Positions 53,691 through 54,322 are shown, counted from the stretch's first letter. The stretch: DNA of 64,000 bases from Escherichia coli (GCF_029227855.1 NZ_CP074356.1), one strand, 5' to 3'. Notes: generated by a model not told the origin, from the sequence alone. Numbers and translations are program-made.

Positions 53691-53966
53691 ATGTAAACAC
53701 AGGTACAGGCTTTACGAAAGAAACAAAAAAACACACTGGATCAGCTATTTAAATCACCTTTACCTCAAGGAATCAAATGGACTGATATAGAATCTCTGGT
53801 TAAAGCGTTAGGCGGAGAAATTAAGGAAGGTAGGGGGTCGCGCTGTAAGTTCATACTAAATATGAGCGTTGCGTGTTTCCATCGGCCTCATCCGTCGCCA
53901 GATACCGATAAAGGCGCTGTAGAAAGCGTGCGTGACTGGTTACTAAGTATAGGGGTAAAACCATGA
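53691..53966 (+). pseudogene. HicA-like toxin gene with an in-frame TAA at codon 2 (ATG TAA ...)
   Basis: Frame 53691..53966 reads M * TQVQALRKKQKNTLDQLFKSPLPQGIKWTDIESLVKALGGEIKEGRGSRCKFILNMSVACFHRPHPSPDTDKGAVESVRDWLLSIGVKP*; HicA-like pattern (GS..KF, HRPHP, C-terminal helix); stop overlaps the downstream ATG; absent from the ORF track because of the TAA. Confidence 0.55.
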
Positions 53967-54322
53967 TCAAACTGAAGACGCCAAACTCTATGGAGATTGC
54001 CGGGCAACCTGCTGTTATCACTTACGTGCCAGAACTGAATGCATTTCGTGGCAAATTCCTGGGCTTGTCAGGTTATTGTGATTTTGTCTCTGACAGCATT
54101 CAGGGGCTGCAAAAAGAAGGGGAACTTTCCCTGCGAGAGTATCTTGAGGATTGTAAAGCTGCGGGTATTGAGCCGTATGCGCGTACAGAAAAGATTAAGA
54201 CCTTTACGTTACGCTATCCAGAATCGCTGAGTGAACGCCTTAATAATGCGGCTGCGCAGCAACAAGTCTCTGTTAATACCTATATTATTGAAACACTGAA
54301 TGAGCGTTTGAATCATTTATAA
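53963..54322 (+). CDS. HicB-like antitoxin with C-terminal ribbon-helix-helix DNA-binding segment
   Basis: ORF 119 aa; C-terminus KTFTLRYPESLSERLNNAAAQQQVSVNTYIIETLNERL is RHH-like; 4-bp overlap with the upstream frame. Confidence 0.55.
   Translation: MIKLKTPNSMEIAGQPAVITYVPELNAFRGKFLGLSGYCDFVSDSIQGLQKEGELSLREYLEDCKAAGIEPYARTEKIKTFTLRYPESLSERLNNAAAQQQVSVNTYIIETLNERLNHL

What the first reader, a model, noticed from the sequence alone, without database searches (positions are those of the whole stretch)
53691..54322. HicA/HicB-like toxin-antitoxin pair with the toxin stopped at codon 2
A frame not in the ORF track reads ATG-TAA followed by 89 sense codons with HicA-like features, and its TGA overlaps the ATG of a 119-aa HicB-like protein with an RHH C-terminus (the classic ATGA junction). 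The toxin therefore appears knocked out by a nonsense codon immediately after the start while the antitoxin is intact. No downstream in-frame start with a convincing SD is visible. The ATG-TAA could alternatively be a start-stop mini-ORF.
Basis: partly seen in the sequence, partly recalled or inferred. Interest (0 to 1): 0.6.

Follow-up and report, generated by a model that had tools for sequence, protein, structure and literature searches.

The report
HicAB pair with nonsense-disabled toxin
This is an ordinary chromosomal HicA/HicB toxin-antitoxin pair of E. coli in which a common natural allele has a stop codon as the toxin's second codon, most likely leaving only the antitoxin, although RefSeq still lists it as a working toxin.

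Summary
ATG-TAA lies at 53691-53696. It is followed by 89 sense codons, and the TGA (53964-66) overlaps the ATG of a 119-aa gene (53963-54322). The window is E. coli, rbbA-yhhJ | hicA hicB | nikR. The repaired toxin matches Pfam HicA_toxin, and its model matches solved HicA toxins. The downstream protein matches Pfam HicB, and its model matches solved HicB antitoxins.

Relatives in Citrobacter, Klebsiella, Serratia and others are 91 aa, start at the same ATG and have Arg, Lys or Glu at codon 2. The other E. coli haplotype has AGA.

The TAA is a real allele, not a sequencing error. 792 of 5,426 complete E. coli genomes and 12 metagenome contigs carry this haplotype. It is always linked to a 14-bp deletion of one operator-like repeat and to a roughly 160-bp divergent block (dS about 0.7, dN/dS about 0.05). 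HicB is unchanged.

RefSeq annotates the allele as a 76-aa toxin starting at a CTG with no ribosome-binding site. That start lies inside a predicted helix and gives a shorter N-terminus than any aligned homologue.

Best reading: a toxin pseudogene beside an intact, probably self-regulated orphan antitoxin. Residual toxin synthesis is not excluded. This is ordinary toxin-antitoxin decay, so interest is low.

The parts
53644..53671 (+). Sigma-70-like promoter of the operon: -35 TTGACT (53644-49), 16-nt spacer, -10 TAAAGT (53666-71)
   Evidence: Consensus scan, 9 of 12 matches. TTGACTTCA is conserved in Citrobacter and another enterobacterial orthologous locus. Function is inferred, not shown.
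53645..53693 (+). Array of operator-like units TGAnnTCATA with a 13-nt period: 53645, 53658, 53671, and a degenerate fourth unit GAATGTCATG at 53684 that covers the ATG. Includes the 8-nt perfect inverted repeat TGACTTCA/TGAAGTCA (53645-52 / 53671-78). Probable HicB (RHH) binding sites.
   Evidence: HicB antitoxins bind palindromic operators in their own promoters (PMC10865869). Binding here is inferred.
53657..53658 (+). Junction of a 14-bp deletion (one repeat unit, TGATGTCATACTAT) relative to the other E. coli haplotype and to Citrobacter and enterobacterial orthologues. The exact position is ambiguous within the repeat.
   Evidence: Alignments. The deletion is present in all 12 metagenome copies of the TAA haplotype.
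53679..53685 (+). Shine-Dalgarno sequence TAAGGGA of the former hicA start. It lies 6-7 nt before ATG 53691.
   Evidence: Read from the sequence. AAGG is conserved in all aligned orthologous loci.
53691..53696 (+). ATG-TAA: the ancestral hicA start codon followed by a nonsense codon at position 2 (AGA, AGG or GAG in relatives)
   Evidence: Exact match in 787 genomes.
53697..53966 (+). Remnant of hicA: 89 sense codons plus TGA, encoding residues 3-91 of a HicA-family toxin (N-terminal two-helix extension plus an alpha-beta-beta-beta-alpha HicA domain at residues 30-86)
53684..53843 (+). Divergent haplotype block (SD region to codon 51). It is 86% identical to the other E. coli haplotype, with dS 0.7-0.8 and dN/dS 0.04-0.07. 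Flanks differ by 1% or less. The right edge varies between copies (53831 or 53843).
53736..53966 (+). CDS as annotated in RefSeq for this allele (WP_042014162.1, 76 aa, 'HicA family toxin'), starting at CTG = Leu16. Probably an annotation artefact.
   Evidence: There is no SD upstream. Leu16 lies inside predicted helix 10-19. The shortest natural homologues in the alignment start at position 8.
53686..53790 (+). Out-of-frame 34-codon ORF (ATG 53686) that runs through the A7 run at 53725-53731. A -1 slip there would rejoin the hicA frame. Listed only because it is the basis of a weak rival explanation.
   Evidence: ATG 53686 sits only 1-2 nt after the SD, so initiation there is disfavoured (inference).
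53951..53955 (+). hicB's own Shine-Dalgarno sequence AGGGG, 7 nt before ATG 53963
   Evidence: The local RNA folds no better than shuffles (z = +0.99), so the site is probably accessible without translation of hicA.
53963..54322 (+). hicB, intact 119-aa antitoxin: N-terminal HicB (partial RNase H-like) fold at residues 9-67 and a C-terminal ribbon-helix-helix DNA-binding domain
   Evidence: Same RefSeq protein as in strains with an intact toxin, and 0-1 nt differences from XJ34 and O157.
54377..54419 (+). 15-bp AT-rich perfect hairpin with a T-rich tail between the convergent hicB and nikR genes. Likely a terminator.
   Evidence: Consensus scan. Function not tested.

Best explanation
The locus is a chromosomal hicAB type II toxin-antitoxin operon of the class whose HicB carries a C-terminal ribbon-helix-helix domain. 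It lies between yhhJ and nikR, the same place as in Citrobacter.

In this E. coli haplotype the toxin gene is a pseudogene. A ribosome that binds the conserved SD (TAAGG) and ATG 53691 meets TAA as the next codon and terminates. The next canonical in-frame start is Met57, inside the beta-sheet, so no functional HicA RNase is made.

hicB has its own accessible SD and is intact. It is expected to be transcribed from the same sigma-70 promoter, which is embedded in an array of TGAnnTCATA repeats that are probably HicB operators. One of these repeats (14 bp) has been deleted in this haplotype.

The locus therefore now works as a self-repressed orphan antitoxin gene with a silent toxin remnant upstream.

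Shown: the lesion, its derived state, its linkage to the deletion and the divergent block, the family and fold of both proteins, and the allele frequency. Inferred: absence of toxin synthesis, continued HicB expression, and operator function.
For: 1. ATG-TAA, then 89 sense codons, then an ATGA junction.
4. Codon 2 is a sense codon in every other relative examined. The 91-aa homologues start M-[RKE]. Citrobacter has AGG, another enterobacterium has GAG, and the other E. coli haplotype has AGA.
5. The allele is real and common. 792 genomes carry the TAA-type 5' haplotype (787 exact) and 1,281 carry the AGA type, out of 2,076 genomes with the locus.
6. There is no ATG, GTG or TTG in frame before codon 57. 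The RefSeq CTG start has no SD and truncates a confidently predicted helix.
7. hicB has its own SD and no sequestering structure.
8. Toxin inactivation recurs at this locus. There is an independent Q26 stop in L010 and several frameshifted or truncated E. coli HicA variants in the protein database.
9. No second copy of this hicA is detectable by blastn in these genomes or on their plasmids.
Against: 1. After the TAA the reading frame is still completely open. 787 of 791 TAA-type genomes are at least 99% identical over the 270-nt remnant, with no secondary lesions. Diversity is too low to tell recent inactivation from continued constraint.
2. The divergent block shows strong purifying selection (dN/dS 0.04-0.07). 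No copy of the block with a sense codon 2 was found in the protein database, the GTDB species representatives, metagenomes or plasmids. The order of events (stop before or after import) is therefore unknown.
3. The whole Pfam-defined HicA domain (residues 30-80) lies downstream of possible near-cognate starts, so trace synthesis of an active fragment cannot be excluded.
4. Nothing here measures expression.
Confidence: 0.8

Rival explanations
1. The toxin is attenuated, not dead. A small amount of N-terminally truncated HicA is made from a near-cognate start downstream of the TAA, such as the CTG at 53736 that RefSeq annotates (76 aa). The pair would remain a working but low-dose toxin-antitoxin system.
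For: The frame stays open for 89 codons with no further lesions in about 790 genomes. The Pfam HicA domain (residues 30-80) is fully retained downstream of CTG 53736. The leader is A-rich and unstructured. PGAP calls this CDS.
Against: There is no SD before the CTG. CTG is a very weak initiator in E. coli (general knowledge, not tested here). In the intact haplotype this codon is TTG, a better initiator, so the TAA haplotype is if anything worse placed. The start would fall at nearly invariant Leu16 inside predicted helix 10-19, and would remove Thr15 and the conserved basic stretch. The shortest natural homologues in the alignment begin 8 residues earlier. Low sequence diversity makes the lack of secondary lesions uninformative.
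Confidence: 0.1
2. The ATG-TAA is a functional start-stop element kept for regulation. Ribosomes load on the strong SD and ATG and terminate at once. This would protect or position the transcript, tune hicB translation, or feed re-initiation at the nearby ATG 53686.
For: A good SD at optimal spacing is retained, and ATG-TAA is invariant in 787 genomes and 12 metagenome contigs. Operational start-stops that bind ribosomes and modestly modulate expression have been shown in E. coli genes (bioRxiv 10.1101/520783).
Against: The start-stop is confined to one haplotype and is plainly a mutated ordinary start; every relative has a sense codon. Its invariance is explained by identity by descent and low diversity. 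hicB has its own SD 270 nt downstream, too far for coupling to a start-stop. No conservation signal supports it independently.
Confidence: 0.06
3. A near-full-length toxin is made by recoding. Translation starts at the out-of-frame ATG 53686, which the same AG-to-TA change opened by destroying a TGA, and shifts -1 on the A7 run (53725-31) into the hicA frame. The product would be MSCKHRYRLYERNKK-NTLDQLF...
For: The geometry is right. The 53686 frame is open through the A7 run, and a -1 slip lands in the hicA frame. In the AGA haplotype the same frame reads ATG CCA TGA.
Against: ATG 53686 lies only 1-2 nt after the SD, whereas ATG 53691 is optimally spaced, so initiation should go to the start-stop. 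The run is preceded by C, so it is not a canonical X XXY YYZ heptamer in that frame, and no stimulatory structure is predicted. The A7 run is shared with the intact haplotype and is not specific to this one. The only length variant seen near it (HH97) is scattered assembly noise outside the run. The conserved L8-R9-K10 would be lost.
Confidence: 0.02
4. The TAA is a sequencing or assembly error in this window.
Against: The 75-nt stretch is identical in 787 independently assembled complete genomes and in 12 metagenome contigs. The TAA differs from AGA at two adjacent bases and sits within a block of about 24 linked substitutions.
Confidence: 0

Closest known systems
Classical hicAB type II toxin-antitoxin operons with an RHH-type HicB (Class 4 of Gerdes 2024, PMC10865869). 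Solved examples: Burkholderia pseudomallei HicAB (6g26) and Streptococcus pneumoniae HicBA (5yrz).
   Same: Gene order is hicA then hicB, with overlapping stop and start. HicA has the alpha-beta-beta-beta-alpha fold. HicB has an N-terminal partial RNase H-like domain and a C-terminal RHH. Repeat and palindrome elements lie in the promoter.
   Different: The toxin reading frame is closed at codon 2. The toxin subfamily has a roughly 29-residue two-helix N-terminal extension. It also has an invariant G-S-R where, as I recall, characterised HicAs have G-S-H. No member of this subfamily has a solved structure by sequence search.
E. coli K-12 HicAB (yncN/ydcQ; 6hpb), the experimentally studied E. 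coli system
   Different: It is a different locus and subfamily. As I recall, K-12 HicB has an HTH rather than an RHH domain, and K-12 HicA is 58 aa without the N-terminal extension. There is no detectable nucleotide similarity (one search finds one place per genome).
Orphan antitoxins and decayed toxin-antitoxin loci in E. coli populations (for example PMC10790755)
   Same: The toxin is lost or inactivated while the antitoxin gene persists. The state is lineage-structured within the species.
   Different: The toxin here is not deleted. It is silenced by a single nonsense codon at position 2, so gene callers still report a 'toxin'.
Start-stop minimal ORFs in E. coli (Meydan et al., bioRxiv 10.1101/520783)
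   Same: [quoted passage not shown]
   Different: Those sites are out-of-frame internal sites within intact genes, with measured ribosome occupancy. This one is the mutated primary start of a gene, restricted to one haplotype, with no occupancy data.

Membership tests
HicA toxin family (PF07927) | Significant match to the HicA_toxin profile | tested here: met
   The repaired 91-aa protein hits PF07927 at E = 9.7e-9, residues 30-80. Homologues carry precomputed PF07927.
HicA toxin family (PF07927) | dsRBD-like alpha-beta-beta-beta-alpha fold | tested here: met
HicA toxin family (PF07927) | Catalytic histidine of the conserved G-x-G-S-H motif (recalled from studies of E. coli, B. pseudomallei and Y. 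pestis HicA) | tested here: inconclusive
   The subfamily alignment shows invariant G49, R51, H64 and H67 (GSR and FHRPHP), so Arg occupies the position I recall as His, and two other histidines are invariant. No residue-level superposition was made.
HicA toxin family (PF07927) | A translatable full-length reading frame | tested here: not met
   TAA is at codon 2. The next ATG, GTG or TTG in frame is at codon 57.
HicA toxin family (PF07927) | RNase activity and growth arrest on expression | not testable with these tools
   Needs expression of the repaired gene with and without hicB.
HicB antitoxin, RHH type (Class 4 hicAB) | N-terminal partial RNase H-like HicB fold | tested here: met
HicB antitoxin, RHH type (Class 4 hicAB) | C-terminal ribbon-helix-helix DNA-binding domain | tested here: met
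HicB antitoxin, RHH type (Class 4 hicAB) | hicA upstream of hicB in one operon, closely linked | tested here: met
   ATGA overlap at 53963-53966. The arrangement is the same in orthologous loci.
HicB antitoxin, RHH type (Class 4 hicAB) | Palindromic operators in the promoter bound by HicB (autoregulation) | tested here: inconclusive
   Repeats and an 8-nt perfect inverted repeat overlap the -35 and -10 elements. The intact haplotype has a 21-nt imperfect palindrome there. Binding was not tested.
Functional start-stop element | [quoted passage not shown] | tested here: met
   TAAGGGA, 5 nt, then ATG TAA.
Functional start-stop element | Conservation of the start-stop among orthologues, or measured ribosome occupancy with a regulatory effect | tested here: not met
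   All orthologues outside this haplotype have a sense codon 2. Occupancy is not testable here.

The most novel reading that the evidence does not exclude
The TAA haplotype is not a dead toxin but a deliberately throttled one. The start-stop at the old ribosome-binding site, together with re-initiation, near-cognate initiation or a -1 slip on the A7 run, would yield trace amounts of an N-terminally altered HicA that HicB holds in check. Selection for this low-dose state would explain why the frame stays open, why the haplotype is always linked to a remodelled operator array, and why it has spread to about 38% of locus-bearing E. coli.
Probability: 0.07. Interest if true: 0.5.

Novelty: already known. 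Interest (0 to 1): 0.18.

Why it matters
The scientific weight is small, because toxin-antitoxin modules often decay to orphan antitoxins. Three practical points follow.

1. RefSeq/PGAP names this allele a 'HicA family toxin' (WP_042014162.1, 76 aa, CTG start) in hundreds of genomes. Population surveys that count toxins by gene calls will probably score about 15% of complete E. coli genomes as carrying a toxin that is most likely not made.

2. The species holds two natural states of the same locus, toxin on (AGA) and toxin off (TAA), with an identical antitoxin. This gives a ready-made comparison for asking what a chromosomal hicAB does.

3. This HicA subfamily has an N-terminal extension and G-S-R in place of G-S-H, and it has no solved or characterised member. 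Its conserved position beside nikR in several genera suggests long vertical residence rather than recent mobility.

Tried and rejected
- **Sequencing error.** Rejected: 787 genomes and 12 metagenome contigs are identical.

- **TAA as a natural, conserved feature of orthologues.** Rejected. It is confined to one haplotype, and all other relatives have a sense codon.

- **Search for an intact ancestor or donor of the divergent 5' block.**
  - A metagenome scan requiring a non-T first base at codon 2 found nothing.
  - All 12 metagenome copies of the block carry the TAA.
  - GTDB species representatives gave only two AGA-type loci.
  - The plasmid collection gave only two chromosome-sized E. coli records of the AGA type and a 75%-identical Klebsiella locus.
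  - No protein above 93% identity has a full N-terminus.
  - The donor remains unknown. By identity (86% to the other E. coli haplotype, 70-73% to Citrobacter and Enterobacter-like loci) it is a divergent Escherichia-level lineage.

- **Polarising the substitutions with two outgroups.** This was meant to detect post-inactivation decay. It was inconclusive: 3 unambiguous derived changes on each side.

- **The -1 frameshift idea.** The one genome with a 2-nt length difference (HH97) proved to have scattered indels in both genes, not an A-run change.

- **hicB ribosome-binding site hidden in structure, hence dependent on hicA translation.** No stable structure is predicted.

- **Searches with no hits.**
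  - Rfam, E <= 1, on both strands of 53400-54600.
  - NCBIfam for either protein.
  - Sequence searches of the PDB for either protein or for the HicA profile gave only chance-level hits. Fold comparison was needed.

- **A second copy of this hicA that the orphan HicB might serve.** None is detectable by blastn in E. coli chromosomes or plasmids.

- **Literature.** No paper found deals with this locus. The hicAB papers retrieved concern the K-12 system or other species.

Full report
**What is in the sequence**

The window is an E. coli chromosome. The region reads rbbA, yhhJ, two small + strand genes, then the convergent nikR-nikE.

- ATG lies at 53691-53693 and is followed directly by TAA (53694-53696).
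- Then come 89 sense codons and a TGA at 53964-53966. This TGA overlaps the ATG (53963-53965) of a 119-codon ORF that ends at 54322.
- A TAAGG Shine-Dalgarno sequence lies 6-7 nt before ATG 53691.
- The second gene has its own AGGGG, 7 nt before its ATG.

**What the two genes are**

- **Toxin frame.** With codon 2 repaired, the protein hits Pfam HicA_toxin (E = 9.7e-9, residues 30-80). It has 1,803 database homologues, the closest 93% identical.
- **Negative searches.** Sequence searches of the PDB and NCBIfam found nothing, so this subfamily has no solved or curated member.
- **Motif.** In the subfamily alignment G49, R51, H64 and H67 are invariant. As I recall it, characterised HicAs have G-S-H where this subfamily has G-S-R. 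I did not map the active site.

**Is the stop a lesion?**

Yes.

- Homologues from Citrobacter, Klebsiella, Enterobacter, Serratia, Dickeya, Photorhabdus and others are mostly 91 aa. That equals M + X + the 89 residues encoded here, and they begin M-R, M-K or M-E.
- Two orthologous loci were fetched as DNA. One is a Citrobacter locus with the same yhhJ-hicA-hicB-nikR order. The other is from another enterobacterium and also lies next to nikR. They have AGG and GAG at codon 2, and their HicB is also 119 aa.
- Other E. coli strains (O157:H7, APEC O2-211, XJ34 and others) have ATG AGA and an intact 276-nt CDS.
- TAA is two substitutions from AGA. A Lys (AAA) intermediate, a residue seen at this position in relatives, would make the last step a single change. 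That step is inference.

**How common is it?**

- 2,076 of 5,426 complete E. coli genomes have the locus.
- A 75-nt probe across SD, ATG-TAA and the A-run matches 792 genomes, 787 of them exactly.
- The corresponding probe from an AGA strain matches 1,281 genomes.
- Over the 270-nt toxin body the split is cleanly bimodal: 787 genomes at 99% or more, 4 at 95-99%, and 1,282 at 90-95%. There is one place per genome and none on plasmids.
- Twelve metagenome contigs with this haplotype all carry the TAA.

The stop is therefore a fixed feature of a common natural haplotype. It occurs for example in O104:H4 and E. coli W. It is not an error.

**What travels with it**

The haplotype differs from the AGA type in three linked ways.

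1. **A 14-bp deletion.** One unit (TGATGTCATACTAT) of an operator-like repeat is missing. The outgroups keep it, so the deletion is derived.
2. **Changes around the SD.**
3. **About 20 substitutions confined to codons 3-51.** In that stretch dS is 0.7-0.8 and dN/dS is 0.04-0.07. Codons 52-91 have dS of 0.04 or less, hicB differs by 0-1 nt from XJ34 and O157, and the yhhJ tail differs by 3 of 288 nt.

The block is 86% identical to the other E. coli haplotype, and both are about 70-73% identical to the outgroups. Its right edge differs among metagenome copies, at 53831 or 53843.

This is the signature of a segment brought in, or kept, from a divergent Escherichia-level lineage by homologous recombination. 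The segment evolved as a working gene for most of its history. I found no copy of the block with a sense codon 2 anywhere. Whether the stop arose before or after the import is therefore open.

**Promoter and operators**

- A sigma-70-like promoter (TTGACT, 16 nt, TAAAGT; 53644-53671) is the only + strand promoter-like site upstream of the operon.
- It lies within units of TGAnnTCATA spaced 13 nt apart (53645, 53658, 53671). A degenerate fourth unit covers the ATG. There is also a perfect 8-nt inverted repeat, TGACTTCA/TGAAGTCA.
- In the AGA haplotype the extra unit creates a 21-nt imperfect palindrome centred on the -10 region.
- Because the deleted unit is a repeat, -35/-10 spacing is preserved: TACTAT is replaced by TAAAGT at the same 16-nt distance (read).
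- HicB proteins repress their operons through such palindromes (PMC10865869). Binding here is inferred.

**Can any toxin still be made?**

- The next canonical in-frame start is Met57, in the middle of the sheet.
- RefSeq nevertheless annotates a 76-aa 'HicA family toxin' (WP_042014162.1) from CTG 53736. That codon has no SD. It corresponds to nearly invariant Leu16 inside predicted helix 10-19. It would give a protein 8 residues shorter at the N-terminus than the shortest natural homologues in the alignment. I regard this as an annotation artefact.
- The whole Pfam-defined domain would be retained, so trace activity cannot be excluded.
- An out-of-frame ATG at 53686 opens a 34-codon ORF through an A7 run, from which a -1 slip would rejoin the hicA frame. 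That ATG is too close to the SD, the run is not specific to this haplotype, and nothing supports recoding.
- The ATG-TAA is formally a start-stop, of the kind shown to bind ribosomes in E. coli (10.1101/520783). Here it is simply a mutated start, restricted to one haplotype.

**Antitoxin**

- hicB is full length and is the same RefSeq protein as in toxin-intact strains.
- Its ribosome-binding site is not predicted to be buried; the local fold is no better than shuffles. It should be translated without hicA translation.
- Polarity from 270 nt of untranslated RNA upstream is possible but was not assessed.

**Verdict**

This is a HicA/HicB pair whose toxin is closed by a nonsense codon at position 2, with an intact antitoxin.

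It is a common, heritable E. coli allele and an instance of ordinary toxin-antitoxin decay. Inactivation of this toxin recurs: there is an independent Q26 stop in L010 and several truncated variants in the protein database.

The points worth recording are the likely mis-annotation in RefSeq, the tight linkage of the stop to an operator-repeat deletion and a deeply divergent recombinant block, and the existence of natural toxin-on and toxin-off states with the same antitoxin. Interest is low.

Noticed in passing
L010 about 925-927 (MAG contig DXKH01000111.1): This contig is labelled Citrobacter sp. but carries E. coli-type sequence. It has the AGA-type hicA with an independent CAA-to-TAA nonsense mutation at codon 26, a second, separate knockout of the same toxin.
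   Followed up: partly
Proteins P0089, P0092, P0093, P0094, P0100, P0051, P0013: Several E. coli HicA variants of the AGA type are frameshifted, truncated or internally deleted in the C-terminal half. This suggests the toxin is inactivated repeatedly in the species.
   Followed up: no
window 53736-53966; L001 3104-3334: RefSeq/PGAP annotates the TAA allele as an intact 76-aa HicA toxin (WP_042014162.1) from a CTG start rather than as a pseudogene. A survey of E. coli toxin-antitoxin systems reports a HicA group '33H' prevalent in phylogroup B1 (PMC10790755), which might be this call. The link was not verified.
   Followed up: partly
L006 1054-1315; L007 1024-1285: In O157:H7 F6667 and strain 20 the gene after hicB is a class II aldolase (frameshifted in F6667), not nikR. 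The right flank of the locus therefore varies between lineages. Similarity to the window ends at about 54333.
   Followed up: no
window 54377-54419: A 15-bp AT-rich perfect hairpin (AACTGAACTTAATTT/AAATTAAGTTCAGTT) with a T-rich tail lies between the convergent hicB and nikR genes. It is probably a shared terminator.
   Followed up: no
NZ_CP026085.1 286121-286928 (hit H28): A 4.83-Mb RefSeq record labelled 'DH5alpha' carries this locus at 100% identity. As I recall, K-12 has the rhsB region between yhhJ and nikR, so the label may be wrong.
   Followed up: no
L008 (NZ_CP116409.1, strain HH97) 708-1400: Both hicA and hicB are annotated as frameshifted, with scattered 1-2 nt indels outside homopolymers. 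This looks like assembly noise rather than biology.
   Followed up: partly
L023 and L025: hicAB sits next to nikR in Citrobacter (with yhhJ on the other side) and in another enterobacterium (with an mgtE-like gene on the other side). This toxin-antitoxin pair is therefore an old chromosomal resident rather than a recent mobile insertion.
   Followed up: partly
Alignment A3: This HicA subfamily has invariant G49-S50-R51 and F63-H64-R65-P66-H67, so Arg stands where I recall the catalytic His of characterised HicAs. It also has a roughly 29-residue two-helix N-terminal extension. No member has a solved structure.
   Followed up: partly
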